Below are positions 3,268 through 43,045 of a stretch of DNA of 64,000 nucleotides, one piece after another. The position numbers and the translations under genes were made by a program. The DNA is taken from sequence record PZ386967.1. One strand, 5' to 3'. The stretch's first letter is position 1, and every line of letters begins with the position of its first letter. Under the pieces are notes generated by a model. The model did not search any database, was not told the DNA's origin, and was given only the letters and a program-made list of their open reading frames with translations. Origin of the DNA: a phage.

Positions 3268-3774
3268 TTATTTGTCAGGGTTCACTAAAACAGGGGTGGA
3301 TACCAGTTCGCCGTTCTTCACAGAATGCTGGACTACAACAAACTGATCGACCATGCGATATACTTCAATTCCAGCAGCCAGCATGTCAATAATGCCGTCT
3401 ATGATACGATATGGTCGGTCATAGAACACTTTAGCGATCTTGCCACTGTCGATAATACGACGGGTGCACTCTGGGCATGGACTATGAGTGACAAACATCA
3501 CTAGGCCACAACAGTCTTCAGTGTGCTGGGGGAGTTTGCTCAGAGCATTCTCCTCGGCGTGGATAACACCCACCGATACCAGTTGACCGTCTACTTCCTT
3601 CTCACAGACATTAGGAGCGCCAGGAGCAGTCCCGTTCCAACCGATAGACAGGGGCTGGTCAACACGCGGGTCAACGATAACACAGCCGACCTTCAGGCGC
3701 TGGGCATAGCTGGACAGGGCGTATGCATGAGCCGAGCGCATATGCGCAAATAACATACGGGGTTTGATAGCCAT
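3268..3774 (-). CDS. cd: dCMP deaminase
   Basis: Zinc-binding motifs HAEENA and PCPEC typical of cytidine/dCMP deaminases. ORF-track start is GTG; the ATG at 3774 overlaps the upstream TGA. Confidence 0.8.
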   Translation of the reverse strand: MAIKPRMLFAHMRSAHAYALSSYAQRLKVGCVIVDPRVDQPLSIGWNGTAPGAPNVCEKEVDGQLVSVGVIHAEENALSKLPQHTEDCCGLVMFVTHSPCPECTRRIIDSGKIAKVFYDRPYRIIDGIIDMLAAGIEVYRMVDQFVVVQHSVKNGELVSTPVLVNPDK

Positions 3775-4088
3775 CACATCACCAGTTTCTTTTCAAGGAG
3801 GAAGATCATGTCGTCTTGGTCTGCACGACCAAAGATCTGACCCATGGCGACCATCTGGTGGACTTCCCTGACAATGATTTCTTTACCAGGAGTAACTTCA
3901 TCCAGGTCCATGATAGTGCTGACGCGGTCTACCATGCGCGGCGGGTGATTAATGTAGCGCTGCAGGTACTTCTCGCGAGTGGCAATCAGGTTGTTCAGCT
4001 CGGAGATTTCAGACTCTTCTTCTGAGAAGCGCTTTTCCTTCGCCTGCAGTTCAGCCAGGCGCTCATACATTTCTTTTAATGGGGTCAT
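3774..4088 (-). CDS. hypothetical protein (predicted helical)
   Basis: 104-aa ORF, ATG start, charged sequence. Confidence 0.45.
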   Translation of the reverse strand: MTPLKEMYERLAELQAKEKRFSEEESEISELNNLIATREKYLQRYINHPPRMVDRVSTIMDLDEVTPGKEIIVREVHQMVAMGQIFGRADQDDMIFLLEKKLVM

Positions 4089-12180: not shown

Positions 12181-12762
12181 TTATAGACCAAATTTGCTAC
12201 GCCACTTTTCAACCTTGTGTTCAATAGCGTGCTCCACTTTAATGCGAGTGGCCATCAAAGAGGATCCATGGATCGCCCCTTCCCCACACCCCATGCGCGC
12301 AACATGCTTGATTAGGTCATTGACGAGTTGATCCAATCTGTCTTGACTGCGATAAGGCTGGTTGCACAACCGGATAATCCGGCCATGATAATGATGGATA
12401 AGATTCAGATGCTTTTGAGGATCACGATCAATCAGACGGAACCAGTCTTCTTCCAACAGATTAGAAGAAATATCGTTCACTGTCGCCATGTGGTTGATGA
12501 CAGAGTCGATCATTTCGGCCTTGTTCATAGAGCCGCGCATTTGGACGTCGTCATAATCCATGACGTACAGAAGGTCAATAGCAGAGATAATGACATCAGC
12601 AACTTCGCCATTCAACGGCTCAGAAGATACTATGCCATGAAACACATCAGACAGTTCACAGATCTCTTCACCTAGTTTGTTCAGAACAAACACAGGCGAG
12701 CGGTCTGGGGTATGAGCAGTGCAGTCATAAGAAGCGTCGACGATAGTGTGTAGAAATTTCAT
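12181..12762 (-). CDS. MazG-like nucleotide pyrophosphohydrolase
   Basis: LNKLGEEICEL...EVADVIISAIDL resembles the MazG EExxE/D motif; ATG with AAGGAA SD. Confidence 0.5.
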   Translation of the reverse strand: MKFLHTIVDASYDCTAHTPDRSPVFVLNKLGEEICELSDVFHGIVSSEPLNGEVADVIISAIDLLYVMDYDDVQMRGSMNKAEMIDSVINHMATVNDISSNLLEEDWFRLIDRDPQKHLNLIHHYHGRIIRLCNQPYRSQDRLDQLVNDLIKHVARMGCGEGAIHGSSLMATRIKVEHAIEHKVEKWRSKFGL

Positions 12763-24535: not shown

Positions 24536-24578
24536 AAAAAGAAAGGGGAACGGGCTAATATTAACCCATTCCCCTTTA
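24536..24578 (-). terminator. rho-independent terminator with conserved 5' flank
   Basis: Minus strand reads GCGTTCTTCAATAAAGGGGAATGGG...CCCGTTCCCCTTTCTTTTT. Confidence 0.5.
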
Positions 24579-24771: not shown

Positions 24772-24807
24772 GATAATATCCTCGCTTTATAGGCGAGGAT
24801 ATTTATA

Positions 24808-26043
24808 TCAGCGTTTCAAGAGTGCCATGAGGTTGACGCTGCTGGACTTCGGCTTGTCCTCAACCTTGCGCACAGGCATCTTCAGGTTCGTACATACCTC
24901 GGATGGCTCCCAGCGCGTACCCTTTTGCAGGTGCCAGATATGCAGAGGAACACCAGTCTCAAAGAACACAGGCATCTTCCACTTCTGGACGCCTGGAACG
25001 TGCCCTGCAGGAGCCTTTTCGCACAACAGGGTATCTGGCAGCCAGAGCGAACGGGCTTCCCAGAGCGCTGCGCAGGAGTATTCAGGCCAGACGCGTTCCA
25101 TGTAGTCTATTTCATCCCAGGTACGCTCTGCGTCCCACCCGATGTAACGGGTATTCTTCAGTCGGAAGAATTTCTTCAGCCAACAAGCACCGGAGGTTTC
25201 AAAGTTCAGACGGTTGATGAACGTCAGGTGTCCGAACTCAGCCACACAATCCTGGAACGCCTGCTCAAGGTCGGCCTCAAGGATGTCACACTCTTCATCC
25301 GTGATAGGGCAACCGTTGATCTTTTTCTTCCCGTGTTTAGTCACCCAATCGTCACGGTTGGACAAGAACGCCGCGCCATTACGGTTGGACTCGCTTCCAT
25401 CACGATCACGCAGCATGAAGCCAGGGACGTCAATGGTGTATTCGTTCCCGAAGACCATGTTCAGGGCTTCCAGGAAGTTCCAGGCGCTCAGGCGACCGAA
25501 GTATTTCCAGGACATCGCCGTGTCCCACAGCTGGGTGAATTGTTCTGTCTTATCGATGCACACCAACATCCCACGGAAAGCGTCATATTGAGTACGGCCA
25601 GCCAGCCAGTCAATATAGGACTGAACACACGGAATCATCTTGGACTTGCGGTAGCGGCAATCGGTATCGAATCGCATGCGATCAAAGTTCAGATTATACC
25701 AATCAGAGAAGCGCTGCATCTCTTCCTTAGACTGAGGCGGCACAGGGAACTCACTGTAGATCGTCCACGGCCCGACGGCGTTATAGCAACAACCCCACAG
25801 GAATGCCATCCAGATCTTGCGCTCGACTTTCTGTTCGAGGCTGATGCCTTCAGTGACTTCGATCGCATAGTCCATCAGACGCATCTGCTGGTTGTGCTCT
25901 TCTGTGTAGGACAGCGCCTCCACCCAAGCCTTGAGCAGGTACATGCGATTCTCAGGCTTGCGATAATCAACAGCCAGGTCAATCGGGTACTTCCATTCAG
26001 CCGGAGGTGTATAGCCCGTCGGCATTTTAGATAAATGATGCAT
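24808..26043 (-). CDS. hypothetical protein (candidate DNA-modification enzyme by context only)
   Basis: 411-aa ORF, ATG start, Trp/Cys-rich; no motif recognised. Confidence 0.5.
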   Translation of the reverse strand: MHHLSKMPTGYTPPAEWKYPIDLAVDYRKPENRMYLLKAWVEALSYTEEHNQQMRLMDYAIEVTEGISLEQKVERKIWMAFLWGCCYNAVGPWTIYSEFPVPPQSKEEMQRFSDWYNLNFDRMRFDTDCRYRKSKMIPCVQSYIDWLAGRTQYDAFRGMLVCIDKTEQFTQLWDTAMSWKYFGRLSAWNFLEALNMVFGNEYTIDVPGFMLRDRDGSESNRNGAAFLSNRDDWVTKHGKKKINGCPITDEECDILEADLEQAFQDCVAEFGHLTFINRLNFETSGACWLKKFFRLKNTRYIGWDAERTWDEIDYMERVWPEYSCAALWEARSLWLPDTLLCEKAPAGHVPGVQKWKMPVFFETGVPLHIWHLQKGTRWEPSEVCTNLKMPVRKVEDKPKSSSVNLMALLKR

Positions 26044-26404
26044 CTTTCGCTTCCTCTTCAGGAGCCACAGCTTCAGGCTCGGGAGCCAACTGAATGTCTT
26101 CTGGTTTCACAAACCCCATCGGACGTTCCCACATATCGATGAAGCGGCGGTCGGCGGTCACAAACCAAAGACGGGCTGCAGTGTGGGTCTTACCCGAGAT
26201 GAACATCTGGGCATTCGTCTGGGTACGGAACGGAGCCGCCTGCAACCACTTACCGAAGTCTTTGGACGACGGATTGGCATTCAGCTGGAACTGAGGGATG
26301 ACGCAGTTCTTTTCAGGAATAAGGCGCACGGCAGTAATGTGCTTGGCGTTTCCGGTGTAGTCAATCGCAACAGCCACAGCATCGCGAGGGATTTGAATTT
26401 TCAT
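26027..26404 (-). CDS. hypothetical protein
   Basis: 125-aa ORF overlapping its neighbours by a few codons. Confidence 0.45.
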   Translation of the reverse strand: MKIQIPRDAVAVAIDYTGNAKHITAVRLIPEKNCVIPQFQLNANPSSKDFGKWLQAAPFRTQTNAQMFISGKTHTAARLWFVTADRRFIDMWERPMGFVKPEDIQLAPEPEAVAPEEEAKDASFI

Positions 26405-26604
26405 TTTGGTTCCTTGAATATTTTATAGCCAGCAGCGCCGATAGCCATAATCGCGCCGATACAATACAACATGGTCAGGTTCATCTTCTCTGAGGTTGTT
26501 AAGTCCAGAGGGGTGAAATGATAGGCTAGGGCAGTACACATTGAAACGGCTGCCATAACCAGACCAATGAACAACAGATAATTAGACAACCGTTTCATGA
26601 TCAC
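26401..26604 (-). CDS. small membrane protein
   Basis: 67-aa ORF with two hydrophobic helices; ATGA coupling. Confidence 0.4.
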   Translation of the reverse strand: MIMKRLSNYLLFIGLVMAAVSMCTALAYHFTPLDLTTSEKMNLTMLYCIGAIMAIGAAGYKIFKEPK

Positions 26605-27518
26605 CCCTTCTTCATCAGGTCAAGGAGAGAGCGCGACGCTGCCTTCGTTGCTTCTGGCTGGGCGCTCGCCTTGGTTTTAGTTTTGGATGCCTTCTGCGGC
26701 TTCTCAGGGACTCTGTGCGCCAAAGGATCCTGGCCGCCGATTTCACGAGTCATCGGATTGGTTTCACAGTAGGCGTAGAAGTCTTTGGTGTCCATGTTAA
26801 CTTCACGCAGTTCGGACCGTATCTGATGACAAATCGCATTACCCACAACCCACAGCGGGGCGTCGTATGGGAGCACCGCCAACTCGGACTGCTGTTTGGT
26901 CGTGAACTCCTGGGTGTTGGTCTCTGGCGCTTTATACAGGATATCCTGTCCGCTGTAATCATCAACAGCCACAGTGAAGCCCAGCGCCAGCATTTCGGCC
27001 TTCGACTTCTCAAACTCCTTGGAGTAAGATTCGTTGCGTGACCAGCCGGAGTTCCCTGCTTCTTTACCAGATCGACCACGGATACGAGCATCGTACTGAT
27101 AGCGGTCGGGGTACGCAAAGTACAGCAGCGCCAATGATTCAATCGGATAGTTCTTGAACATCCATTCAGGACGCCATTTGTCCGACAGCATGAGGGGTTC
27201 ACCCTCACACACCAGAGTGTATCCCTGAACCAACCAGCACTTGATTAGATCACGAGCAATATCGCCTGAGCCTGTAGCAGCATGGATTGCATCCATTGAA
27301 GTCCAGGAAGCCAGGCCGGATTTGTTAGACACGGTGTACTGTCCAACGAAGATTAACTTCAGCTCTCCGAACTTCAGGCCAAACGGGCGAGTCTTGTCAC
27401 CAACGGTGTAGGTCAGTTCGGTAGGCTCCAGCTTCGTACGGAGCCATTCGATGAACTGGACCACTCTCGTACCCTTGCCCGTGGCCGAGGTGCCTTTCAC
27501 TACGATAATTTTTGCCAT
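26601..27518 (-). CDS. P-loop kinase (polynucleotide kinase-like; candidate DNA or nucleotide kinase)
   Basis: N-terminal Walker A KIIVVKGTSATGKGT, similar in layout to T4 Pnk N-terminus (KIILTIGCPGSGKST); 305 aa. Confidence 0.55.
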   Translation of the reverse strand: MAKIIVVKGTSATGKGTRVVQFIEWLRTKLEPTELTYTVGDKTRPFGLKFGELKLIFVGQYTVSNKSGLASWTSMDAIHAATGSGDIARDLIKCWLVQGYTLVCEGEPLMLSDKWRPEWMFKNYPIESLALLYFAYPDRYQYDARIRGRSGKEAGNSGWSRNESYSKEFEKSKAEMLALGFTVAVDDYSGQDILYKAPETNTQEFTTKQQSELAVLPYDAPLWVVGNAICHQIRSELREVNMDTKDFYAYCETNPMTREIGGQDPLAHRVPEKPQKASKTKTKASAQPEATKAASRSLLDLMKKG

Positions 27519-27823
27519 TACACAGCATCCTCAATACGCCAGCTCACGCCGCCCAGCCAAGGTGCCCAGAACACAGCAACCTGCGGACGACCGTTTTCTT
27601 CAAACTTAACTTTATACTGGTCGTCGAAGTTATAGAAGATTTCATCCGATTCAGAGCGCTGGCCGATCTTCACCAGTACATCATGAAGAGCCTTGGCTGC
27701 GCCGATAGGAGTTGGAGTCTCCTGCTGACGAATGAAGTTGTTCACATGGTTAATCACGCCATCCATGTCGCTGTCACCGGAACGCTTGTCTGGGGTTTCC
27801 CCGAACTTATTCTGATCTTGCAC
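27518..27823 (-). CDS. hypothetical protein
   Basis: 101-aa ORF; TAATG junction with the kinase gene. Confidence 0.45.
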   Translation of the reverse strand: MQDQNKFGETPDKRSGDSDMDGVINHVNNFIRQQETPTPIGAAKALHDVLVKIGQRSESDEIFYNFDDQYKVKFEENGRPQVAVFWAPWLGGVSWRIEDAV

Positions 27824-27832
27824 GATGTCCTC

Positions 27833-28612
27833 CTATCGGACGTATTGATAATGACTAATCAGGCGGTTCACCACTTCGAAGATATTGTGGTTCAGGAAGT
27901 CGAAGTGATTCTGGCCTTCTACTGGTTTAATATAAAGCATGTCTTCCGAATTCGAAAGATCCAGTTTTTCATAATTGCCCTGAGGAACAAAGATGACAAA
28001 GATGTTGTTCAGGCCGCACGGCTCGACATACTTCGGATTGTCATCAATCAGGACATCGCCAGCCAGCAGATGCTTTTCGTCGGTACTGACAAACCCGTTG
28101 AAGATACCAGGGAACTTATCATAGACAAACTGACGCTTGCTGCGCTCGTGTTCCGGCTCACACTTGGACACTGCGATGAATTCAACATTGTCGAAATCTT
28201 CAAGCAAGATCTCCTTCAGATTTACCAGGAACTCGTAAGCGCCGGGGAGCGGGTTCATCTTGGCGTACAAGTCAGGGCGACGCCACCAGTCCATAGGATC
28301 GTTACCGCTTGGCACACGTTGTTTGTGCATCCCCAATTGGACTTCATGGTATAGCCACGCCGGATGCGCACGTTCACGCATCAGAATAGCCAGGTCGCCA
28401 GCATGGGACATATAACACTCTTTGGTGATCGGCTGGAACTGGTATGACTTATGTTCCCCCGTAGCGATAGCAGCGGCGGCGATGTTCTCTTCGTTAAACC
28501 ACTGCACCCAAGGGGAGAGGCTGTCGACCAACGTCAGGTCAACATCCACGAGGACGCGATACAGGCCACCGACCTTTGATTTCATATCATAGATACAAAC
28601 CAGGTTGTTCAT
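27833..28612 (-). CDS. HAD-superfamily phosphatase
   Basis: N-terminal DVDLTL matches HAD motif I (DxDxT); ATG with GAGGAA SD. Confidence 0.55.
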   Translation of the reverse strand: MNNLVCIYDMKSKVGGLYRVLVDVDLTLVDSLSPWVQWFNEENIAAAAIATGEHKSYQFQPITKECYMSHAGDLAILMRERAHPAWLYHEVQLGMHKQRVPSGNDPMDWWRRPDLYAKMNPLPGAYEFLVNLKEILLEDFDNVEFIAVSKCEPEHERSKRQFVYDKFPGIFNGFVSTDEKHLLAGDVLIDDNPKYVEPCGLNNIFVIFVPQGNYEKLDLSNSEDMLYIKPVEGQNHFDFLNHNIFEVVNRLISHYQYVR

Positions 28613-28950
28613 TTGTCTTCCTCAACTTTATCGTAGCCTGTAGCAACACACTGTTCTTCGGTACAATCTGCATACAGAACGACGGAGGCCTGCTTCACGT
28701 AGGTGATGCAGTGGTAAGTTTCGTCTTCCTGGATGGAATCGTCATAGTTGCAGACAGTTTGGAGCGGACCCGGAGTAGTGTTGTCCAGTGCTGCATGCGC
28801 CTTGATGGTGTCTTCCATCTTGGACACGGCCTGCTCATTGGTGAACGTCGGCGTGTCAAGGTCTACAGTAGAAGCAACGTCCAGAAGGGTGGAACACGCA
28901 GTGGTAGAGAAAGCCAGAGCACACACCAGAAGAATCTTATTGAGTTTCAT
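28609..28950 (-). CDS. putative secreted protein or lipoprotein
   Basis: Start moved to ATG 28950; signal-peptide-like MKLNKILLVCALAFSTTAC with Cys after the hydrophobic core. Confidence 0.45.
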   Translation of the reverse strand: MKLNKILLVCALAFSTTACSTLLDVASTVDLDTPTFTNEQAVSKMEDTIKAHAALDNTTPGPLQTVCNYDDSIQEDETYHCITYVKQASVVLYADCTEEQCVATGYDKVEEDK

Positions 28951-29012
28951 TTCAATCACCTGTTTGTCAAAGGGTTAACAGGGGGAATTATATCCCCCTT
29001 TGGTTTATTGAA

Positions 29013-32012
29013 TCAACCTTTCTTCTTTTGCATCATGGCAAGAAGGTTCACACGGCGCTTGTGCGACCAGCCGACCACGTCAAGGATGGACTGAATCGGG
29101 TCAATGAAGGACTTCTCAAAGGCCGCCTGATAATCCACCCATTTGCCCAGACCAAGCTCCTCAGGGAAGAACTCAGGATATGCGAAGTAATTCTGGCCGA
29201 ATGGGTTGCCTGGCTTCAACAACACCATCTGTACCTTATCACCCGACTCGATCATCGGTAGACCCAGATCTTCGTTCTTCTCAACCAGACGGTTGTAGCC
29301 CACACACGCCTTGGCAGCAAAATGAGCACCAGAGATGAACGATCCGTCAGCAGCCACACACTTCTCTATGTCGGACACGCCGGAAGCCTTGGCGATATCG
29401 TCTACAGAGAGTTTCATGTACTCCTCTTTGTACTGGGAGATGAGCGCCTGTACTTCCTCTTCAGTGCCGAGTAGGATCTTCTCATAGCACTTGACAAGAC
29501 GCTCACGACACCATTCCGGCGTGGTGGACTTGCGGGCTTCCAGACCTTTGAACTTGATCTTCGGCTTCTCGTACTTGATACCCTCACTGTCGTACACGGC
29601 CATGGCATACATCTTCTTGGCTCGCCAGACAGCGGCTGACGCAATGACCTCACGCTCCCATACCATGCGCTGTTCAAATCCGTTCATGGTGTTACACAGA
29701 AGCTGTGCCCACTCATTGGTCTTCGGCTGGTAGTTGTCTTTGATCCATTGGTCGATATTATCAACCATAGCATGATGGTCAGTAACATCAGGCCACAACT
29801 GCTTGACAAGACGCTCAATGCAGATGTAGTTGGAGTCGGTATCACCTGCGATGACGAAGTCCTGGCCTGTTGTACCACACAGCTTGTTCAGATAGTCATC
29901 AGTGTAACGCTTGTTCCACTTGTTGATCAGCTGACCGGATGTGGTGATGGCTTCGGCAATGTTGAGGTTGAAGTACTCTTTGAACCAGACGTTCGAGATA
30001 GCGCCATAACCTGCGTTCATCAAGATCTTCAGACCTTGCTGTAGGGTGTCTTGAGCAACGCCCAGATCTTCCCACTTCTTCATCACTTCGGTCAGTGCAT
30101 CAAGATCAATGTTCTTGTGCTCTTCATACCACTCTGGGTCATAGTAGCGAGACTTCATGGCAGACTCAAGATGGAAGTCGCCCTTCGACATCTCTTTACA
30201 CCAGCCAGCCCACTGCTCATACTTCAGACCCTTGGCCTTCTCTACTTTACGGTCGCTGTAGATACCACGCATGATTTCAGACAGGAACGACATCTTCTCG
30301 TTGCTGAAGAATTGAACGTTCGGCGTGAACGACACGTTGTAGCGGCGCAGGGTTTCAAAGTGGAACTCACCCAGGGCAACCAACTCATCAACAACCTGCA
30401 GGCGTTCGTCAACCGCACGCAACAGCTTGTCGTGAAGGGCTTTCATCAACCGACGTTTGTGCATCGGCGTTGCCATGTTATTCATCTGAGCAGCCAGCTC
30501 TTCACACATAGCCTCAATAATCTCGCGGCGCTGGTGTTTGTCGCCAACGATAGTCTCTGGACCGAGGTTGTACTGCTGAATGATGTGAGGATACAGGGAA
30601 TTCAAATCTTCCGAGAAGACCCAGAAGTAGATTCCTGGTGTCACATCCATGACGTATGCACCCTCAAAGTCGGTCGGACCATCGTATACACGCTGGATCT
30701 TAGGCACTATCCCCTTCTCGTACAGGCGATAGTAGCACATGGCCAGCCACGGAGCCACAGTTCCCAGACCGTCTTCATAGTTGGACTTGGTGCGGTAGGC
30801 CAGGACGAACATCAGCTGGAGCAGGCGCAGCTTCTGTTCAAGTCGCCATACCAGCTTAACGTCTTTGATACCATATCGGGTGTGTTTGCAGTAGTCGTTG
30901 AAGTACAGATCAAAGAGCGACTTGCTCTCACTGTAGTCCATCTTCTTCTCACCCAGCTCACAATACGCAATCCAGTCAAGAGAGTAGCGTTCACGGGTGG
31001 TGTACGTGTGTTTCTTGTAGATCTGCATATAATCGAGCATAGGACAGCCCACGAACTGATACGTCGTGATATCGCCCTTCTTATCGCGAATGATACGCTT
31101 CTTAATGATACCCCAAGGACTGAGGCGCGACGTTTCAGCCTCACCCAGAACCTGATTCATGCGCTCAACAAGATACGGGCTATCGAACGTTTCAATGTTC
31201 CAGCCTGTCCAGCCGTCGAACTGACGCTCCGACCAGAAGTCAAGGAAAGATCGCAGCAGATCTTGTTCGGTGGTGAACTCCTGATAAACAACCTCAAGGC
31301 CGCCGATCTCTTTGTCTTCGGTGTCGTATGCGAATTTGTTACGATCTTTGGCACAGGGCATACCCCAGACCATGAACTTATTGGTCGCCATATCCTGAAG
31401 CTGGATCAGGGTAATGGGGAACGCCGCATTCATGTCTTGGGTGATCTTGCCGTTGCTGTCAATGATAGGGAACTGATCAGTGACGTTGTTGCTGATGAAA
31501 GAACCAGGGAAGTGCTCACGGACAAAGTCATGGTTGGCCAGCACTTGTTTATGGAAGCGGCGAATGCGCGCCTCATTCCCTTTGAACGTCTGCTGCTCAA
31601 TAGTTGGGTGAGGGAATGGACCTTTGGTCATCTTTCCGTCTTTCCACCCGGCGGAGAATACTTCGATATCGAGGTTAGCAATATGGATGTTGGAGTAATC
31701 CGGCTCAATCTTTCCAGGAAAGCTATGGGCGATGAACTGGTATGCATAATCGGTCTGCCCATAAATGGCAGCACCCTGGACTTCCTTGTACTCTTCAAGA
31801 TAGTTGTCAGCGTCACGCATGGAAGGGAACTGCTTGGCTACCAGGGGTTCATTGAGAAGGCCGACCTTTTCAACATTTGAATAGTCAGCCGTGGGTAAAT
31901 AGAGAGTGGGTTCGAATTTCTTTTTCAACAGACGGCGATTACCCATGTCATCTGCAATTCGAATCAACAGGTCATTGCCCCTGCGGGCAACGTTCGTATA
32001 GAAAACGGTCAT
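29013..32012 (-). CDS. 43: family-B DNA polymerase (T4 gp43-like)
   Basis: N-terminus matches recalled T4 gp43 (YLPT..., QKFPSM[KR]DA); YGDTDS-type polymerase motif AGDTDS; 999 aa; ATG with GGAG SD. Confidence 0.9.
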   Translation of the reverse strand: MTVFYTNVARRGNDLLIRIADDMGNRRLLKKKFEPTLYLPTADYSNVEKVGLLNEPLVAKQFPSMRDADNYLEEYKEVQGAAIYGQTDYAYQFIAHSFPGKIEPDYSNIHIANLDIEVFSAGWKDGKMTKGPFPHPTIEQQTFKGNEARIRRFHKQVLANHDFVREHFPGSFISNNVTDQFPIIDSNGKITQDMNAAFPITLIQLQDMATNKFMVWGMPCAKDRNKFAYDTEDKEIGGLEVVYQEFTTEQDLLRSFLDFWSERQFDGWTGWNIETFDSPYLVERMNQVLGEAETSRLSPWGIIKKRIIRDKKGDITTYQFVGCPMLDYMQIYKKHTYTTRERYSLDWIAYCELGEKKMDYSESKSLFDLYFNDYCKHTRYGIKDVKLVWRLEQKLRLLQLMFVLAYRTKSNYEDGLGTVAPWLAMCYYRLYEKGIVPKIQRVYDGPTDFEGAYVMDVTPGIYFWVFSEDLNSLYPHIIQQYNLGPETIVGDKHQRREIIEAMCEELAAQMNNMATPMHKRRLMKALHDKLLRAVDERLQVVDELVALGEFHFETLRRYNVSFTPNVQFFSNEKMSFLSEIMRGIYSDRKVEKAKGLKYEQWAGWCKEMSKGDFHLESAMKSRYYDPEWYEEHKNIDLDALTEVMKKWEDLGVAQDTLQQGLKILMNAGYGAISNVWFKEYFNLNIAEAITTSGQLINKWNKRYTDDYLNKLCGTTGQDFVIAGDTDSNYICIERLVKQLWPDVTDHHAMVDNIDQWIKDNYQPKTNEWAQLLCNTMNGFEQRMVWEREVIASAAVWRAKKMYAMAVYDSEGIKYEKPKIKFKGLEARKSTTPEWCRERLVKCYEKILLGTEEEVQALISQYKEEYMKLSVDDIAKASGVSDIEKCVAADGSFISGAHFAAKACVGYNRLVEKNEDLGLPMIESGDKVQMVLLKPGNPFGQNYFAYPEFFPEELGLGKWVDYQAAFEKSFIDPIQSILDVVGWSHKRRVNLLAMMQKKKG

Positions 32013-34213: not shown

Positions 34214-35428
34214 TCAGGAAGGGGTGAATTCGTTTACAGGAACTGTTTCAGGGATAGCCAGCTCAGGGCATGCTGCCTTCATCGGCTCGATGTATGGCTT
34301 GCTACCCACAATCCAGAACAGAGTGTTCTCATTGAGCAACTCGGGCTTGTGTTGCTGAACCCAGGTCATGACCTTGCCTTCATAGCGAGGATGCAACTCA
34401 ATATCACCCCACTGATATTCCATCAGGTCATTATAACGAACCCAATTAGTGGTATGAAGATCCCAATGGTGTACCTCAAAGCGAGGAAGCACGACCTCTG
34501 GCTCTTCCTTCTGCCTGATACCACTTAGGAGGCCAGCCAGCGAAACGCTCTTAGAGGCATGCTGAAGCTCCTTCTTGCCGTGTACATAGTCTGGGTTGTC
34601 GTGATAGCGACGGGTAAAGTCGACAATGTGCGGTAGATTGGCATGTTTGCCGATGATGCGCAGACGACTCTCGATAAAGTCCAGGCGGTTCGGACCGATG
34701 CCAATCAGATACACACGCTTCAGATTAGGCTTCGGATGCATTGCCAGCCCGGTCAGGATGCTTGTGCAAGAGTTGCACGATCCGGCTGGGATGATCAGGT
34801 CAGTAATGTGATCAGGAATGTTGGCAACCTGCTCGCCACCCAACATATGGAACCCAGCAATGCGCTCAGGGGAGTGGGCTGTATGGTCGAGGGTGATACC
34901 ATACTCCAGATAATACGCCTTTGGATTCTGTTGTTCGATCAACTTCTTACAGCGCGGCTGGATGGTGCTGTTGTAACCCGAGCCGACGAAGTTGAACTCA
35001 CTACCAAACCAGGCTGACATTGCCACCATTTCATGGTTCATACAGGTGGTGGGTTTGGTCGCGCCGAGCACAGTAGTTGTCTTGCCGCCGAAGTGCCGAG
35101 AGACTGCCGTCGCCATAGGGGACTGCGGACTACCAACGACAGTACCATGGATGATGTCAGGGGAGCCTCCGGTCATGAGGTGCTCAACCATCAACCAGAT
35201 GGCCTGGCGGAGTTTGCTGCCGTTGATGCCCTGCTGGCCATTTGCATAATTGGACAGCGGCGCAAAATAATCTTCACGCTTGAACCAGACCTGCTGGTTG
35301 GTTTCGGGGTTGACGACAAGTTCGCACGGGGTGTGCTTGTAGAGATAATCTTCCCAATGGACCAGGTTGCGGTCGAGGGAAAGGATATCGAAGATGGTCT
35401 TGTTCATTCTATTTTCTCCTGTAGACAT
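34214..35428 (-). CDS. PLP-dependent enzyme, fold type II (ACC deaminase / D-cysteine desulfhydrase-like)
   Basis: WFKREDY...GINGSKLRQA...HGTVVGSPQSP...FGGKTTTVLG matches the KREDL / GGNKxRK / G-rich PLP-loop pattern of that family. Confidence 0.55.
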   Translation of the reverse strand: MSTGENRMNKTIFDILSLDRNLVHWEDYLYKHTPCELVVNPETNQQVWFKREDYFAPLSNYANGQQGINGSKLRQAIWLMVEHLMTGGSPDIIHGTVVGSPQSPMATAVSRHFGGKTTTVLGATKPTTCMNHEMVAMSAWFGSEFNFVGSGYNSTIQPRCKKLIEQQNPKAYYLEYGITLDHTAHSPERIAGFHMLGGEQVANIPDHITDLIIPAGSCNSCTSILTGLAMHPKPNLKRVYLIGIGPNRLDFIESRLRIIGKHANLPHIVDFTRRYHDNPDYVHGKKELQHASKSVSLAGLLSGIRQKEEPEVVLPRFEVHHWDLHTTNWVRYNDLMEYQWGDIELHPRYEGKVMTWVQQHKPELLNENTLFWIVGSKPYIEPMKAACPELAIPETVPVNEFTPS

Positions 35429-35477: not shown

Positions 35478-36122
35478 TTACTTCTTGAACAGACGAAGGA
35501 ACTTCATCATGTTATCCATGAAAGTTGGCTTCTTGGCCTTTTGTTTTACTGGAGCACCCTGATCATTCAGAACACGACTGGCCGGAGGAGTTGGATTCAA
35601 AGATTTAATTGCCTGATTCAAATCGGAATTATCCACGACACCCACTTCTTCACCGACCGTAACGCATGGTTTGATTAGAACGGATTTCTTAGACTGCTCA
35701 TACTGATGAGCGATATCCAGATATTTCTTGCGCTCTGCGTAGAAATCAACAGACTTGACCTTGCGACGACGCCAATTGGCGCTTTCTTCGCCATAGAAAT
35801 CATATCCGTTTCTGATCAGCCAGTGTACGGCTTGTTCAAAAGAACCGAAGACCATAAGTGGAGCACCCTGGCCTTTCTCAGATTGTTCCAGGCTACCATA
35901 ACCCATCAATACAACCTGGCCTTTGATACTCAAATCAAACGTCATACCAAGGTTCGGGATGTTTTTATCGCGGCGGAAGAACCCGCCATCACGGTAGACG
36001 TAAACAGGCGACAGGAACTCATTCAGAGTACGCTTGACACCCTTGTATCGGAAGAGTCTGACAATTGGAGGGGTGTCACGGGAAATCACTTCGTTCAATT
36101 CCCAGATAGAAACATTACGCAT
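35478..36122 (-). CDS. hypothetical protein
   Basis: 214-aa ORF, ATG start, basic C-terminus. Confidence 0.45.
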   Translation of the reverse strand: MRNVSIWELNEVISRDTPPIVRLFRYKGVKRTLNEFLSPVYVYRDGGFFRRDKNIPNLGMTFDLSIKGQVVLMGYGSLEQSEKGQGAPLMVFGSFEQAVHWLIRNGYDFYGEESANWRRRKVKSVDFYAERKKYLDIAHQYEQSKKSVLIKPCVTVGEEVGVVDNSDLNQAIKSLNPTPPASRVLNDQGAPVKQKAKKPTFMDNMMKFLRLFKK

Positions 36123-36492: not shown

Positions 36493-36581
36493 TGGCGGAA
36501 GGTGAAGGATTCGAACCTTCGGGGGCTAAAAGCCCCACTCGATTAGCAGTCGAGTCCCTTAAACCTCTCGGGCAACCTTCC
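36493..36581 (-). tRNA. tRNA-Ser (anticodon GCU)
   Basis: Hand-folded cloverleaf: acceptor GGAAGGT/ACCTTCC, anticodon loop CTGCTAA, long variable arm, T-loop GGTTCGAATCC, encoded CCA. Confidence 0.8.
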
Positions 36582-36801
36582 AATTTGGACGGGCTTCACA
36601 CCCGATTGAGCATTTGATCTGCTGTAGCCCAACTCCCCGCGCTTCTCAGCGCCGATTGGTTAACTGGCGACCAGTGCCTTCTGGTTCGATCTCCTGGAAC
36701 TTTACAGGCTTTGCGCCCGACCATTTCTGGAAGTTGGGGCATCGTTTCCGATGTGGAGTCACCCCATTTTATACACAGCTGGCTGCAACGCTTACTGTGT
36801 T

Positions 36802-36886
36802 TGGTGTGAGTGGATGGATTCGAACCACCGCGCTGTTACGGGGAGATTTACAGTCTCCTGCATTCGACCGCTCTGCCACACTCACA
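36802..36886 (-). tRNA. tRNA-Tyr (anticodon GUA)
   Basis: Acceptor GTGAGTG/CACTCAC, anticodon stem GGAGA/TCTCC with loop CTGTAAA, long variable arm, T-loop TTCGAAT, encoded CCA. Confidence 0.75.
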
Positions 36887-37142
36887 TTTGGTCTGCCGCT
36901 GCGTGCTGGGCCACGCTCGAGGACATCGGCCATCCTTCCTCAGCTAATCCACGCAGCGGTAGATTTGTATCAGAGTGTCCGGTGTAGCAACCCGTGAGGT
37001 GCGCACTACTGTAGCCTCTACACTCTGAATTTGGTGGGCGTTACTATCGTCGTCTTCGGATTCCGTTCGGCTATTGGACAGAGGCTTGGAGCTTGTCGGT
37101 CGCGTACTTTATGCCTATTCACTTTCGTTCACACCCATTGTC

Positions 37143-37218
37143 TGGCGACGATGGCAGGACTTGAACCTGCGACATACGGTTTAACAGACCGCCGTTCTAC
37201 CGACTGAACTACATCGTC
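37143..37218 (-). tRNA. tRNA-Asn (anticodon GUU)
   Basis: Acceptor GACGATG/CATCGTC, anticodon loop CTGTTAA, T-arm CAGG-TTCAAGT-CCTG, encoded CCA. Confidence 0.8.
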
Positions 37219-37389
37219 TTGCAAATCACTATACCATATAAAGTTTATTGAACAAACATTTATTTTACAACAAACTGTATTGGCGGGGTCTGAGGCTTTT
37301 CACCTCACCTGCTGGGTTTGGCCGCCCAGCCGTTCTCTATGAGGATTCACTGTCCGGACAGCTATCCATTAAACTATCGCCCCTCAATA

Positions 37390-37466
37390 TGGTGATCCTG
37401 ATTGGGTTTGAACCAATGACCAATGAATTATGAGTTCACTGCTCTAACCGACTGAGCTACAGGACC
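37390..37466 (-). tRNA. tRNA-Met (anticodon CAU; initiator, elongator or Ile2 not resolved)
   Basis: Acceptor GGTCCTG/CAGGATC, D-arm TAGCTCAGTCGGTTAGAGCA, anticodon loop CTCATAA, T-loop GGTTCAAACCC, encoded CCA. Confidence 0.8.
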
Positions 37467-40427: not shown

Positions 40428-42206
40428 ATGGCCACGCAAACAGTCCCTTCACTCGATGTCAGGGCTTTCGAGTATCTTATCAAGAAGCGCATGAAAGCTG
40501 ATCCAACTTTCAAGGATTATGACTTTGAAGGTTCTGGTCTCAGTGCAATCGTGCGTATCTTGGCCTCGGATGCCAACTCTATCGGGTTCATGCAGAACAT
40601 GCTGAATGGCGAAAGCCATCTTCACTCTGCTCAACAGCGTTCTAATGTCGGTCTTGCGGCCGGGTTCTTGTCGTACACCCCTCACAACTACCAGGCGGCG
40701 TACCTGTACGCAAACGTCACAGTCACTCCATATGACGCCAGCACGGCTCCGGACACGATTATAATGGATCGCCGCGCGATGTTCATTGGGGCGAAGGATG
40801 GCAAATCCTACAACTTCACGGTTGACCAACCTGTGAGTGCCTCTCTTGTAGACGGCTCTTACAAGTTCGAGAACATCAAACTCGTACAGGGCAACTGGCT
40901 ATACAAGTCCTATGACGTGGAAGGCAGCGCGATCTCTACCTATGTGATCCCATCTTCTTCCGTGGACATCGACCATATGGTGGTGCAGGTGCAGGAATCT
41001 GAGACATCTGACGTGCGGTCTACCTTCTCACGATATGTCAGCCCGTTCGATTTGAGCCAGTATGCGCAACTCTACTTCGTTGAGCTGGGGTTGGACGGGA
41101 TGTATACGTTCGAATTCGGTGATGGGTATATCTGTAAGCGAGTAGAAGACGGGAACGTCGTGTACCTCCAGTATCTGGAGACAGCTGGTGCGGACGGCAA
41201 TGACATCACTGCCTTGTCCTCCGCGTCTTCCATCGGGGGATTCAACCTTGTAGATGTTGAGCTGGTGTCAGAACGTTCTTCCGGTGGTGCGGACCCGGAG
41301 AGCATTGAGGACATCAAGCGCCTTGCTCCGCTGGCTTATCAGGCTGAGGGTGCGGCGGTAGCTGAAGTCGATTATGCTGTGTTGACCGAGCGTCTGTTCT
41401 CCAACGTCTCCCGCGCCAAAGCATATGGCGGAGACACGCTCTCTCCGCCCGACTCCGGATACGTTTACATTGCTGTGGTGCCTTCTGTTGGTGAGACGCT
41501 CTCGGACGCCGAGAAGGCAGATATCGTGGCGAAGTTGGACAAGTACAATGTGGGCACGATCACACCCAAGATTGTCGACGCTGAACTGACTTATGTTGAT
41601 GTCACCACCCGCGTGTTCTGGGATCCGACTTCCACGACTTACACCGAAGAGCAGTTGAAGACAGTCGTGAAGAACGGTGTTGTCAACTGGGGCTTGGGGA
41701 ACCTAGAAGGATTCGACGAACTGTTCGATAAAGAGCAGTTGCAGTCGGCCATCACCGACATGGACAGATCGATAGTGTCAAACATCACTTCTGTGAAGTA
41801 TAAGCGCCATTTCAAGCCAGACTATGGGGTACTGGACAGCTTCACATTCGATTATGGGCGCTCGATTGCGTCTGGTTCTGTGCGTATCAGTGGGTTTAAG
41901 CCGCTTCCGGCCGAGGTCGAATTCACTTACTACATACGCGACGTCAGTGGTGTCCTGAATATGTACAAGGTGAGTACAACAGACACGACCAAGGAATATC
42001 TGGTACAAGCTGTTGGAATGGTTGATTATGTGACTGGCGTTGTTGAACTCCAGCGTATCATAGTATCCAACTACAACACTGAGGGTGTGACAATAATTGT
42101 GTCTCCAGACGGTCTTGACCAGAACATACAGGCCACACAGAATCAGGTGCTCCGCATCGGTGCTGTAACTGTGGAGCCGGAGGTGCGTTATGTCCAAAGA
42201 TCTTAA
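40428..42206 (+). CDS. 6: baseplate wedge protein (T4 gp6-like, Baseplate_J family)
   Basis: N-terminal DYDFEGSGLSAIVRILA matches recalled T4 gp6 (DYDFEGSRLNVLCDLLA); start moved to ATG 40428 with GGAG SD (ORF-track start is TTG). Confidence 0.7.
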   Translation: MATQTVPSLDVRAFEYLIKKRMKADPTFKDYDFEGSGLSAIVRILASDANSIGFMQNMLNGESHLHSAQQRSNVGLAAGFLSYTPHNYQAAYLYANVTVTPYDASTAPDTIIMDRRAMFIGAKDGKSYNFTVDQPVSASLVDGSYKFENIKLVQGNWLYKSYDVEGSAISTYVIPSSSVDIDHMVVQVQESETSDVRSTFSRYVSPFDLSQYAQLYFVELGLDGMYTFEFGDGYICKRVEDGNVVYLQYLETAGADGNDITALSSASSIGGFNLVDVELVSERSSGGADPESIEDIKRLAPLAYQAEGAAVAEVDYAVLTERLFSNVSRAKAYGGDTLSPPDSGYVYIAVVPSVGETLSDAEKADIVAKLDKYNVGTITPKIVDAELTYVDVTTRVFWDPTSTTYTEEQLKTVVKNGVVNWGLGNLEGFDELFDKEQLQSAITDMDRSIVSNITSVKYKRHFKPDYGVLDSFTFDYGRSIASGSVRISGFKPLPAEVEFTYYIRDVSGVLNMYKVSTTDTTKEYLVQAVGMVDYVTGVVELQRIIVSNYNTEGVTIIVSPDGLDQNIQATQNQVLRIGAVTVEPEVRYVQRS

Positions 42207-43044: not shown

Positions 43045-43045
43045 A

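What the first reader, a model, noticed from the sequence alone, without database searches (positions are those of the whole stretch)
24808..28612. Candidate DNA-hypermodification gene set: P-loop kinase, HAD phosphatase and an unknown 411-aa protein
The P-loop kinase (26601..27518, Walker A KGTSATGKGT) and HAD phosphatase (27833..28612, DVDLTL) sit just downstream of the DNA polymerase, next to a 411-aa protein of no recognisable family and three small ORFs. In ViI-like and related phages, thymidine hypermodification uses a 5-hydroxymethyl-dU DNA kinase of the P-loop class plus transferases and PLP enzymes. The window also has dCMP deaminase (3268..3774) and a MazG-like pyrophosphatase (12181..12762), which fit nucleotide-pool editing. 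The kinase and phosphatase could equally be a split polynucleotide kinase-phosphatase (T4 PseT-like) for RNA repair.
Basis: inference. Interest (0 to 1): 0.6.

Follow-up and report, generated by a model that had tools for sequence, protein, structure and literature searches.

The report
Known ViI-type thymidine hypermodification genes
These genes are the already characterised phage pathway that converts thymine-position bases in the viral DNA into 5-(2-aminoethoxy)methyluracil to evade host nucleases, so the finding is correct but ordinary; a new detail is that the DNA-modifying enzymes end in the same short tail as the DNA polymerase, which suggests they dock on the same partner, probably the replication clamp.

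Summary
The ORFs are real and form one tightly packed minus-strand unit downstream of the DNA polymerase. The window comes from an Agtrevirus-like Ackermannviridae phage, nearly identical to Escherichia phage LHE287.

The P-loop kinase is a full-length Pfam HMUD2 member, 85% identical to ViI gp243, a demonstrated 5-hmdU DNA kinase. The "unknown" 411-aa protein is Pfam ADDT, 90% identical to ViI gp247, the demonstrated serine:DNA transferase. The third enzyme, the PLP decarboxylase (91% identical to ViI gp226), lies at 34214-35428. This is the published 5-NeOmdU pathway, so it is already known. The PseT-like RNA-repair alternative is rejected.

The HAD protein is not an established pathway member. 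It is an intact NT5C-type deoxyribonucleotidase, always placed just after the polymerase, and most plausibly a dTMP-depleting nucleotidase (inferred).

One new observation emerged. Polymerase, kinase 2, transferase, gp160 and a small Cys-rich protein share a lineage-specific C-terminal peptide: VNLLxMM-type in enteric phages, [KR][KR]LW in Vibrio phages. Its co-variation suggests a common docking partner, probably the sliding clamp.

The parts
29013..32012 (-). Family-B DNA polymerase (999 aa). Its C-terminal peptide ...RRVNLLAMMQKKKG is encoded at about 29016-29057.
   Evidence: ORF; collinear with ViI polA; tail
28987..29016 (-). Sigma-70-like promoter match (TTGATT-18-TATAAT) just after the polymerase stop, upstream of the module
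   Evidence: This is a consensus match only, and such sites are not enriched over shuffles.
28609..28959 (-). 116-aa DUF7292 protein with a signal/lipobox-like N-terminus. It belongs to the operon and probably not to the pathway.
   Evidence: Pfam PF23964, 8e-54; annotated as a putative lipoprotein in relatives
27833..28612 (-). HAD phosphatase of the NT5C 5'(3')-deoxyribonucleotidase type (259 aa). Proposed dTMP-depleting nucleotidase (inferred).
   Evidence: Pfam NT5C 35.2 bits against a cutoff of 24.8; 76% identical to ViI orf239; invariant D23, D25, T27, S158, K159, D190, D191; AF2 pLDDT 88 and top PDB neighbours 3bwv, mdN and cdN
27518..27823 (-). 101-aa DUF7254 protein. Its stop overlaps the kinase start by 1 nt, and a small ORF occupies the same position after the HAD gene in distant relatives. 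Function unknown.
   Evidence: Pfam PF23912, 6e-52; positional conservation; AF2 pLDDT 83 with no fold match
26601..27518 (-). 5-hmdU DNA kinase, clade 2 (305 aa). It phosphorylates 5-hmdU in DNA to give 5-PmdU. C-terminal tail ...SRSLLDLMKKG.
   Evidence: Pfam HMUD2 E 3e-158, full length; 85% identical to ViI gp243, which is active in vitro (PMC8989533)
26401..26604 (-). 67-aa protein that looks like a two-helix membrane protein. Absent from the Vibrio phage module.
   Evidence: phrog_4514; absent in L006; membrane character judged by eye from the sequence
26027..26404 (-). 125-aa protein of unknown function. It overlaps the transferase start by 17 nt and is absent from the Vibrio phage module.
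   Evidence: phrog_4163
24808..26043 (-). Amino acid:DNA transferase (AADT, aGPT-Pplase2; 411 aa), orthologue of the ViI serine:DNA transferase. It converts 5-PmdU to O-serinyl-thymidine. Putative catalytic E282, T283 and C287. C-terminal tail ...SSVNLMALLKR.
   Evidence: Pfam ADDT 7e-60; 90% identical to ViI gp247 without gaps; invariant E282, T283, C287; motif correspondence to PaMx11 gp46 E243, T244, C247
24604..24771 (-). 55-aa protein with one apparent membrane helix; last gene before the terminator
   Evidence: phrog_3879; ORF
24542..24577 (-). Intrinsic-terminator-like hairpin (16-bp stem followed by a T run) that closes the unit
34214..35428 (-). PLP-dependent decarboxylase, orthologue of ViI gp226. 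It converts O-SerT to 5-NeOmdU. Schiff-base lysine K72.
   Evidence: 91% identity over 395 aa, with K72 aligned to ViI K92; Pfam PALP match below cutoff; PMC8989533
3268..3777 (-). dCMP deaminase, which supplies dUMP for the pre-replicative arm
   Evidence: Pfam 4e-16; phrog_174 5e-53; role as described in PMC8989533
12181..12762 (-). MazG-like NTP pyrophosphatase. A possible dTTP/dUTP pool editor (inferred only).
   Evidence: phrog_1247 5e-35; no Pfam hit at E 0.01 or below

Best explanation
The region is the post-replicative core of the Ackermannviridae (ViI-type) thymidine hypermodification pathway. The phage replicates its DNA with 5-hydroxymethyl-dU in place of T. The 305-aa P-loop enzyme (5-hmdU DNA kinase, clade 2) then phosphorylates the hydroxymethyl group in the DNA polymer to give 5-PmdU. 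The 411-aa helix-hairpin-helix-fold enzyme (amino acid:DNA transferase) attacks C6 with Cys287 and expels phosphate. It then adds the side-chain oxygen of free L-serine to the exocyclic methylene, giving O-serinyl-thymidine. The PLP enzyme encoded 6 kb upstream (34214..35428) decarboxylates this to 5-(2-aminoethoxy)methyl-dU (5-NeOmdU). These three steps are shown experimentally for the ViI orthologues and are inferred here from 85-91% identity. The HAD protein is not part of that demonstrated chemistry. It is an intact, capped, NT5C-type deoxyribonucleotidase. The most likely role (inferred, about 50%) is hydrolysis of dTMP to keep dTTP out of the replication pool, like the dTMPase activity of the Bacillus hmU phages. 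The small ORFs in the operon have no assigned role. An added inference: kinase 2 and the transferase carry the polymerase's C-terminal peptide, so they probably dock on the same partner, most likely the gp45-type sliding clamp, which would couple modification to replication.
For: Pfam HMUD2 E 3e-158 and ADDT E 7e-60. BLASTP against ViI: gp243 85%, gp247 90%, gp226 91%, orf239 76%. Gene order is identical to ViI. Biochemistry of the ViI orthologues comes from PMC5889632 and PMC8989533. Catalytic E-T-x3-C is invariant and matches the PaMx11 gp46 active-site motif. The module polymerase-HAD-small ORF-HMUD2-ADDT recurs in Serratia phage 3M and in Vibrio phage 1.255.O, whose DNA contains 5-NeOmdU. 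Homologues of gp67 and gp160 occur in the window's close relatives. HAD: motifs intact; nearest structures are mdN, cdN and 3bwv; polymerase-HAD linkage persists in Kuja and SD25, where kinase 2 and the transferase are not adjacent. Tail: proteome-wide scans and co-variation. T4 precedent: PMC2988020.
Against: No chemistry has been measured for this phage. The dUMP hydroxymethylase, kinase 1 and gp160 lie outside the window, so pathway completeness rests on relatives. Serine specificity is assumed from 90% identity. The correspondence of E282 and C287 to gp46 E243 and C247 rests on motif similarity, because the HH alignment was not significant and PDB sequence searches found nothing. The HAD protein was not needed for in-vitro reconstitution and is not discussed in either Lee paper; its substrate is unknown, and an mdN-like enzyme might also hydrolyse dUMP, which would work against the pathway. 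For the tail, the gp55 homologues show a different hydrophobic motif (SLEDIM, GLARLF), and gp33 lacks the polymerase-type tail, so the clamp is not proven to be the partner.
Confidence: 0.85

Rival explanations
1. The kinase and the HAD phosphatase together form a split polynucleotide kinase-phosphatase (T4 PseT-like) that heals broken tRNA or DNA ends.
For: Only the generic pairing of a P-loop kinase with a DxDxT phosphatase in one operon.
Against: The kinase matches only HMUD2, over its full length, and is 85% identical to an enzyme shown to phosphorylate 5-hmdU in DNA. The HAD protein matches NT5C and no PNK phosphatase family. Its model has a large cap domain, and its nearest structures are deoxyribonucleotidases, with no Pnkp among the 50 best matches shown. 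No RNA ligase lies in the operon.
Confidence: 0.01
2. The HAD protein acts at the DNA level. It would remove the phosphate from 5-PmdU (or trim a pyrophosphate), and so set which sites become hypermodified, revert to 5-hmdU or become thymine.
For: It shares an operon with kinase 2, and the intervening DUF7254 gene overlaps the kinase start by 1 nt. The linkage is conserved in Serratia and several Vibrio phages. Only about 40% of T positions end up modified (PMC5889632), which needs some form of control.
Against: The enlarged cap domain is typical of HAD enzymes that act on small molecules; capless HADs are the ones that act on macromolecules (own knowledge of the HAD superfamily). It lacks the polymerase-type tail carried by every DNA-acting enzyme of the pathway. 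In Kuja and SD25 it stays with the polymerase without an adjacent kinase 2 or transferase.
Confidence: 0.12
3. The HAD protein is a general deoxyribonucleotidase for nucleotide salvage or pool balancing and is unrelated to thymine exclusion. It merely sits beside the hypermodification genes.
For: The NT5C family is widespread and many members are broad in specificity. The linkage seen could reflect shared ancestry within one phage family, since all homologues found come from Ackermannviridae-type genomes.
Against: This subfamily is confined to the phage family whose studied members replace T by 5-hmdU at replication. In the Vibrio phages it lies in one cluster with dUTPase, dNMP kinase, the thyA-like gene and both kinases. 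The hmU-phage scheme requires a dTMPase activity for which no other candidate gene was seen (PMC8989533).
Confidence: 0.3
4. The shared C-terminal peptide binds something other than the sliding clamp, such as another replisome or scaffold protein or DNA itself through the basic residues, or it is a stability or turnover signal.
For: The tails are hydrophobic and basic rather than hydrophobic and acidic as in T4. The gp55 and gp33 homologues do not carry them. The Vibrio polymerase keeps an internal VNLFALGG in addition to the terminal RKLW, so two different sites may exist.
Against: In T4 and RB69 the polymerase's extreme C-terminus is the clamp-binding epitope, and clamp ligands share it through flexible linkers (PMC2988020). 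These phages encode gp45, gp44 and gp62 homologues. All carriers with an assigned function act on DNA.
Confidence: 0.3

Closest known systems
Salmonella phage ViI (Kuttervirus) 5-NeOmdU pathway: gp243 and gp67 kinases, gp247 serine:DNA transferase, gp226 PLP decarboxylase (Lee et al. 2018 PNAS; Lee et al. 2021 NAR)
   Same: Orthologous proteins at 85%, 90% and 91% identity. Gene order is identical from polA through orf248. Walker-A-like loop, E-T-x3-C motif and PLP lysine are all conserved.
   Different: A different genus (Agtrevirus-like, subfamily Aglimvirinae). No chemical data exist for this phage. Kinase 1, gp160 and the dUMP hydroxymethylase lie outside the window. The kinase P-loop has Ala where ViI has Gly (GTSATGKGT against GTSGTGKGT).
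Pseudomonas phage PaMx11 gp46 (PUGT; PDB 8Z2M/8Z2N), glycine:DNA transferase
   Same: It lines up motif by motif with the window protein, and its paper describes gp46 as the first solved amino acid:DNA transferase domain structure. The proposed mechanism is base flipping with Cys attack at C6 and a nearby Glu-Thr. Its FGPW and ETxxC motifs correspond to FGRLSAW and ETSGAC here.
   Different: Too divergent for sequence searches (hhalign E 0.26). Glycine is attached through its amine, not serine through its hydroxyl. It is 292 aa with no C-terminal tail, and it comes from a siphovirus of another family (Mesyanzhinovviridae).
NT5C 5'(3')-deoxyribonucleotidases (human mdN and cdN; S. epidermidis 3bwv), and the dTMPase activity of Bacillus hmU phages (Aposhian 1965, as cited in PMC8989533)
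   Same: HAD core with DxDxT, S-K and DD motifs; the nearest sequence and structure matches. mdN prefers dUMP and dTMP (own knowledge). The hmU-phage scheme needs a dTMPase.
   Different: About 50 extra residues in the cap region, including a beta-hairpin. A subfamily-specific invariant C-E-P-E-H motif. Only 16-18% identity to solved structures. Substrate untested. No gene-level link to the historical dTMPase activity.
Sliding-clamp-binding C-terminal epitopes of T4 gp43, gp55 and gp33 (Geiduschek and Kassavetis 2010, PMC2988020)
   Same: A short hydrophobic peptide at the extreme C-terminus, shared between the polymerase and functionally unrelated proteins and joined to each by a variable linker.
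   Different: Here the carriers are DNA base-modifying enzymes. The tails are basic rather than acidic. Binding to the clamp has not been tested. The gp55 and gp33 homologues do not share the polymerase-type tail.
T4 PseT polynucleotide kinase-phosphatase
   Same: A P-loop kinase together with a DxDxT phosphatase.
   Different: No family-level match for either protein. The kinase substrate is a base hydroxymethyl group, not a 5'-OH end. The phosphatase is capped and NT5C-like.

Membership tests
5-hmdU DNA kinase clade 2 (Pfam PF18747 HMUD2) | Full-length match to the family profile above the curated cutoff | tested here: met
   526 bits against a cutoff of 25; residues 1-304 on profile positions 1-298 of 298
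5-hmdU DNA kinase clade 2 (Pfam PF18747 HMUD2) | P-loop (Walker A-like GxxxxGKGT) near the N-terminus | tested here: met
   GTSATGKGT at residues 8-16, against GTSGTGKGT in ViI gp243
5-hmdU DNA kinase clade 2 (Pfam PF18747 HMUD2) | Orthology to an enzyme shown to phosphorylate 5-hmdU in DNA | tested here: met
   85% identity over 304 aa to ViI gp243 in a syntenic position; gp243 activity reported in PMC8989533
5-hmdU DNA kinase clade 2 (Pfam PF18747 HMUD2) | ATP-dependent phosphorylation of 5-hmdU in polymeric DNA | not testable with these tools
   Needs purified protein and a 5-hmdU DNA substrate
5-hmdU DNA kinase clade 2 (Pfam PF18747 HMUD2) | A source of 5-hmdU in the same genome (dUMP hydroxymethylase) | tested here: inconclusive
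   Not in the 64-kb window. It sits next to gp67 in ViI and in the Vibrio phages, and gp67 homologues occur in close relatives.
Amino acid:DNA transferase (AADT, aGPT-Pplase clade 2; Pfam PF18724) | Match to the family profile above the curated cutoff | tested here: met
   203 bits against a cutoff of 26.2; residues 49-292
Amino acid:DNA transferase (AADT, aGPT-Pplase clade 2; Pfam PF18724) | Essential active-site cysteine with a nearby glutamate | tested here: met
   E282-T283-S-G-A-C287 is invariant in four homologues that share 56-90% identity with the window protein. The same motif type is seen at gp46 E243-T244-x2-C247. The residue-level equivalence rests on the motif, because hhalign was not significant.
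Amino acid:DNA transferase (AADT, aGPT-Pplase clade 2; Pfam PF18724) | Genomic association with a 5-HMUDK | tested here: met
   Same operon, 558 nt downstream of the kinase; adjacent to it in the Vibrio phages
Amino acid:DNA transferase (AADT, aGPT-Pplase clade 2; Pfam PF18724) | Transfer of L-serine through its side-chain oxygen to 5-PmdU | not testable with these tools
   Inferred from 90% ungapped identity to ViI gp247
PLP-dependent O-SerT decarboxylase (ViI gp226 type) | Orthology and conserved Schiff-base lysine | tested here: met
   91% identity; K72 aligns with ViI K92. Pfam PALP scores 29.3 bits, below its cutoff of 35.
NT5C 5'(3')-deoxyribonucleotidase (HAD superfamily) | Profile match above cutoff and HAD motifs I-IV | tested here: met
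   35.2 bits against a cutoff of 24.8; D23, D25, T27, S158, K159, D190 and D191 invariant in 19 sequences
NT5C 5'(3')-deoxyribonucleotidase (HAD superfamily) | Fold closest to known deoxyribonucleotidases | tested here: met
   Model pLDDT 88. The top Foldseek PDB hits are 3bwv, 1q92, 1z4i, 2jao and 4mum, E 3e-8 to 7e-7, TM-score normalised to the target 0.6-0.77.
NT5C 5'(3')-deoxyribonucleotidase (HAD superfamily) | dNMP (specifically dTMP) phosphatase activity | not testable with these tools
   Enzyme assay required
T4 PseT-like polynucleotide kinase-phosphatase | Kinase and phosphatase domains belonging to the PNK families | tested here: not met
   No PNK family hit at E 0.1 or below for either protein; no Pnkp among the 50 best structural matches shown for the HAD model
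Sliding-clamp ligands with a polymerase-type C-terminal epitope | Peptide at the extreme C-terminus resembling the cognate polymerase tail | tested here: met
   ViI proteome scan: 4 of the 6 best non-self matches to the polymerase 7-mer lie within 5 residues of a C-terminus, P about 8e-6.
Sliding-clamp ligands with a polymerase-type C-terminal epitope | Co-variation of the tail with the polymerase tail across lineages | tested here: met
   Enteric phages and Serratia 3M have the VNLLxMM type. In Vibrio 1.255.O, exactly five proteins of the whole proteome end in [KR][KR]LW, and they are the orthologues of the five ViI carriers. In K441 and K474, of which only the ~21-kb cluster was read, polymerase, kinase 2, transferase and gp160 carry the same ending.
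Sliding-clamp ligands with a polymerase-type C-terminal epitope | Physical binding to the phage gp45-type clamp | not testable with these tools
   The clamp gene is outside the window, and the structure tool does not accept complexes or outside sequences

The most novel reading that the evidence does not exclude
The DNA-level enzymes of thymidine hypermodification (kinase 2, the serine:DNA transferase and the gp160 paralogue), plus a small Zn-ribbon-like protein, are tethered to the phage sliding clamp through the same C-terminal peptide as the DNA polymerase. Base hypermodification would then be physically coupled to the replication fork, or to clamps left on nascent DNA. That would be a phage counterpart of PCNA-tethered maintenance methylation. 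The soluble steps (kinase 1, PLP decarboxylase, HAD nucleotidase) are not tethered.
Probability: 0.5. Interest if true: 0.65.

Novelty: already known. Interest (0 to 1): 0.33.

Why it matters
As annotation, this turns several "hypothetical proteins" of an Agtrevirus-like coliphage into named enzymes. It predicts that the phage's DNA carries 5-NeOmdU at roughly 40% of T positions. That matters for restriction and CRISPR resistance, for sequencing and cloning of such phages, and for their use in therapy or biocontrol. None of it is new biology, because the pathway was worked out in ViI and predicted for the whole family.

Two points go beyond the literature I could search:
- The HAD gene and its small downstream partner are the most stably polymerase-linked genes of the module. 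The HAD protein is a concrete candidate for the long-known but unassigned dTMPase function.
- The shared, co-varying C-terminal tail gives a testable mechanism for how post-replicative hypermodification enzymes find newly made DNA.

Tried and rejected
- Sequence searches of the PDB with the transferase, the kinase and a 4-sequence transferase profile found nothing.
- The hhalign comparison of that profile with PaMx11 gp46 was not significant (E 0.26), so the catalytic-residue equivalence rests on motifs.
- NCBIfam had no model for any of seven proteins.
- DUF7254 gave a confident AF2 model but no structural neighbour (best E 0.34), so its function stays unknown.
- TATAAATA, a T4 late-promoter-like octamer, lies directly after the transferase stop. 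It occurs only twice in 64 kb against about 1 expected, so I dropped it as a promoter claim.
- Sigma-70-like promoter sites are not enriched over shuffles.
- The supplement of Lee 2021 and the EcoSal review were not available, so the exact residues mutated in gp247 could not be read.
- The PseT-like Pnkp reading was considered and rejected.
- A DNA-level role for the HAD protein was considered and ranked low: it has a cap domain, it lacks the tail, and it persists next to the polymerase without kinase 2 in Kuja and SD25.
- Two early sandbox scripts failed because several loci are stored in one FASTA file; this was solved.

Full report
**Observation.** They are the DNA polymerase (29013..32012), a 116-aa ORF (28609..28959), the HAD protein (27833..28612, DVDLTL at residues 23-28) and a 101-aa ORF (27518..27823). 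Then come the P-loop protein (26601..27518, KGTSATGKGT at residues 7-16), ORFs of 67 and 125 aa, the 411-aa protein (24808..26043) and a 55-aa ORF. From 28959 to 24808 the genes overlap by 1-17 nt or are separated by at most 9 nt. A strong terminator-like hairpin follows at 24577..24542, and a sigma-70-like site lies just after the polymerase stop. It therefore reads as one transcription and translation unit. The dCMP deaminase (3268..3777) and the MazG-like gene (12181..12762) are also real.

**Source of the window.** Megablast places the region in Ackermannviridae, subfamily Aglimvirinae. The best matches are Escherichia phages LHE287, RPN242 and AV101 (95-96% DNA identity), then SKML-39 and Ag3. 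The transferase is 99.8% identical to that of LHE287.

**What the proteins are.** The kinase matches Pfam HMUD2 (5-hmdU DNA kinase 2) over its full length with E 3e-158. The "unknown" 411-aa protein matches Pfam ADDT (amino acid:DNA transferase) with E 7e-60. Compared directly with Salmonella phage ViI, the kinase is 85% identical to gp243, the 411-aa protein 90% identical to gp247 without a gap, and the HAD protein 76% identical to orf239. The gene order polA, 237, 239, 240, 243, 244, 245, 247, 248 is the same in both phages. It is 91% identical to the ViI PLP enzyme gp226 and keeps the predicted Schiff-base lysine, K72 here and K92 in ViI.

**What is known about the orthologues.**
- Lee et al. 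2018 showed that ViI, CBA120, CBA6 and Vibrio phage 1.255.O carry 5-(2-aminoethoxy)methyl-dU at about 40% of T positions. They showed that lysates with gp67, gp160, gp226, gp243 and gp247 make it from 5-hmdU DNA. Their list of phages with the same genes already includes SKML-39 and AG3.
- Lee et al. 2021 showed with purified proteins that gp67 and gp243 each phosphorylate 5-hmdU in DNA. gp247 transfers free L-serine through its side-chain oxygen to 5-PmdU and needs a conserved Cys and a nearby Glu. gp226 decarboxylates O-SerT to 5-NeOmdU.
- DNA is first made with 5-hmdU fully replacing T. The 5-hmdU is then converted either to the hypermodified base or to canonical thymine.
- A 2024 review states that the genes are conserved throughout Ackermannviridae.

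The finding is therefore a correct recognition of an already known system.

**Catalytic residues.** In an alignment of the window transferase with ViI, Serratia phage 3M and Vibrio phage 1.255.O homologues (56-90% identical to the window protein), E282, T283 and C287 are invariant. The crystal structure of the glycine:DNA transferase PaMx11 gp46 assigns catalysis to E243, T244 and C247 in the motif EVETILCKW. The window has NFETSGACW. A profile-sequence comparison lines up the upstream motifs (FGPW with FGRLSAW) but is not statistically significant, and PDB sequence searches found nothing. The residue equivalence is therefore motif-level inference.

**The HAD protein.** It exceeds the Pfam NT5C cutoff, and its best PDB sequence matches are 3bwv and human mitochondrial deoxyribonucleotidase. 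A search of 5.8 billion proteins found only 63 clusters, almost all on contigs of 150-164 kb, the size of Ackermannviridae genomes. HAD motifs I, III and IV are invariant across this subfamily, as is a subfamily-specific C-E-P-E-H motif. The AF2 model (pLDDT 88) is closest to 3bwv, mdN and cdN, and no polynucleotide-kinase phosphatase appears among the 50 best matches shown. It has an enlarged cap, which in the HAD superfamily goes with small-molecule substrates (own knowledge).

Gene context also separates it from the DNA-level enzymes. In Serratia 3M and in Vibrio phages 1.255.O and K474 the order is polymerase, HAD, small ORF, kinase 2, transferase; in K441 an HNH endonuclease gene is inserted after the HAD gene. 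In Vibrio phages Kuja and SD25 the trio polymerase, HAD, small ORF persists without kinase 2 or the transferase beside it. In Kuja it is followed by an unassigned 321-aa ORF, a dNMP-kinase-like gene and dUTPase. Neither Lee paper mentions a phosphatase or nucleotidase of ViI, and reconstitution does not need one. The hmU-phage scheme they describe does include a dTMPase activity that depletes thymidine nucleotides. My best explanation is therefore that this is the dTMP nucleotidase of the pre-replicative arm. That is inference, at about 50%. The rivals are a general deoxyribonucleotidase or a DNA-level 5-PmdU phosphatase.

**Rejected alternative.** The split PseT-like Pnkp reading fails on every testable feature.

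**Small ORFs.**
- DUF7292 looks like a lipoprotein, and the 67-aa and 55-aa products look like membrane proteins (judged by eye from the sequences).
- The 67-aa and 125-aa genes are absent from the Vibrio module.
- DUF7254 (101 aa) overlaps the kinase start by 1 nt, and a small ORF occupies the same position after the HAD gene even in Kuja.
- The DUF7254 model (pLDDT 83: two helices and a three-stranded sheet) has no structural neighbour.

**A new observation made in passing.** In the window the polymerase ends ...RRVNLLAMMQKKKG. Kinase 2 ends ...SRSLLDLMKKG after a K/S/T/A/P-rich linker, and the transferase ends ...SSVNLMALLKR. In Serratia 3M the three ends are VNLLSMMGKR, SNLLAMLLRNKK and VNLLSMLGGKK.

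I scanned the whole ViI proteome (218 ORFs, 48,641 windows of 7 residues) with the polymerase's own 7-mer. Four of the six best non-self matches lie within five residues of a C-terminus: orf53 (a 70-aa Cys-rich protein), gp247, gp243 and gp160. The binomial P is about 8e-6.

In Vibrio phage 1.255.O exactly five proteins of the proteome end in [KR][KR]LW. They are the polymerase, kinase 2, the transferase, the gp160 orthologue (48% identity, E 4e-124) and a 98-aa Cys-rich protein that is the counterpart of orf53. In the ~21-kb clusters read from Vibrio phages K441 and K474, the polymerase, kinase 2, transferase and gp160 carry the same ending. The HAD protein, kinase 1, the PLP enzyme, thyA, dNMP kinase and dUTPase do not. 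The same five orthologues thus carry a tail that changes together with the polymerase tail between lineages, which argues for a common docking partner.

In T4 and RB69 the polymerase's C-terminal peptide binds the gp45 sliding clamp. The same epitope, on a flexible linker, tethers gp55 and gp33 (PMC2988020). Ackermannviridae encode gp45, gp44 and gp62 homologues. I therefore propose clamp tethering of the DNA-level hypermodification enzymes. There are caveats. The tails are basic rather than acidic. The gp55 and gp33 homologues do not carry the polymerase-type tail. The Vibrio polymerase also keeps an internal VNLFALGG. No binding could be tested. I found no report of this in the searchable literature.

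**Verdict.** The system is already known, being orthologous to the ViI 5-NeOmdU pathway. Interest in the finding itself is low. It is raised modestly by the candidate dTMPase assignment and by the shared polymerase-type tail, which is a testable and, as far as I could tell, unreported feature.

Noticed in passing
window 29016-29057 (polymerase), 26604-26636 (kinase 2), 24811-24843 (transferase); also ViI gp160 and orf53; Vibrio phages L006, L017, L018: The polymerase, kinase 2, the transferase, gp160 and a small Cys-rich protein share a lineage-specific C-terminal peptide: VNLLxMM-type in enteric phages and Serratia 3M, [KR][KR]LW in Vibrio phages. It co-varies with the polymerase tail, which makes it a probable common docking peptide, with the sliding clamp as the likeliest partner. 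I found no report of it in the searched literature.
   Followed up: yes
window 6063-6695 (-) and 35478-36122 (-): The DexA-like exonuclease ends ...KTMEDLMGLEVVG. The 214-aa phrog_4050 protein next to the PLP decarboxylase ends ...PTFMDNMMKFLRLFKK. Both resemble T4-type S-L-x-D-L-M hydrophobic epitopes and the SLEDIM of ViI gp55, so they may be further ligands of the same partner.
   Followed up: partly
window 27518-28612; L015 8926-9874; L016 8791-9465; L006 6827-7754: The HAD gene and a downstream ORF of about 90-100 aa (DUF7254 in enteric phages) follow the polymerase in most Ackermannviridae examined, including Kuja, where kinase 2 and the transferase are not adjacent. In SD25 only the HAD gene is annotated directly after the polymerase, and in K441 an HNH endonuclease gene is inserted after it. 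DUF7254 has no detectable fold relative.
   Followed up: partly
L001 6646-7332 (RPN242), compared with the window junction at 27518: Relatives (RPN242, Ag3, AV101, P46FS4) carry a SegD-like homing endonuclease gene between DUF7254 and kinase 2. The window, like ViI, has none. PHROG 15209 even models an endonuclease-kinase fusion.
   Followed up: no
L006 11335-12516 (gp160 orthologue); ViI gp160: Pfam now names the gp160 (aGPT-Pplase1) family "HMUDK_hel, 5-hmdU DNA kinase helical domain". SP10 gp186 is a fusion of kinase 1 with this domain, and kinase 2 sits beside the transferase. Together these suggest two kinase/helical-enzyme pairs, one of which might make canonical T from 5-hmdU. Untested.
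   Followed up: no
L013 22942-25739 through L006; L017 and L018: In Vibrio phages 1.255.O, K441 and K474 the whole pathway forms one cluster of about 13 kb next to the polymerase: dUTPase, dNMP kinase, thyA-like, kinase 1, gp160, transferase, kinase 2, HAD. In enteric phages it is scattered over at least three loci.
   Followed up: partly
window 36493-37466 (-): Four tRNA genes (Ser-GCT, Tyr-GTA, Asn-GTT, Met-CAT) lie in the ORF-poor stretch upstream of the PLP-enzyme region.
   Followed up: yes
window 42000-56000: GC content drops from about 0.50 to 0.41-0.46 with positive GC skew across the large plus-strand ORFs. By synteny with ViI these are the tail-spike genes, and the drop is consistent with horizontally exchanged receptor-binding modules.
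   Followed up: no
window 24775-24807 (-): Directly after the transferase stop lie TATAAATA and an 8-bp-stem hairpin (ATCCTCGC...GCGAGGAT), just before the 55-aa ORF. The octamer is not enriched in the window (2 found, about 1 expected), so no promoter claim is made.
   Followed up: yes
window 26601-27518, residues 8-16: The kinase P-loop reads GTSATGKGT, with Ala where ViI and Serratia 3M have Gly (GTSGTGKGT). This is probably neutral, but it lies inside the nucleotide-binding loop.
   Followed up: no
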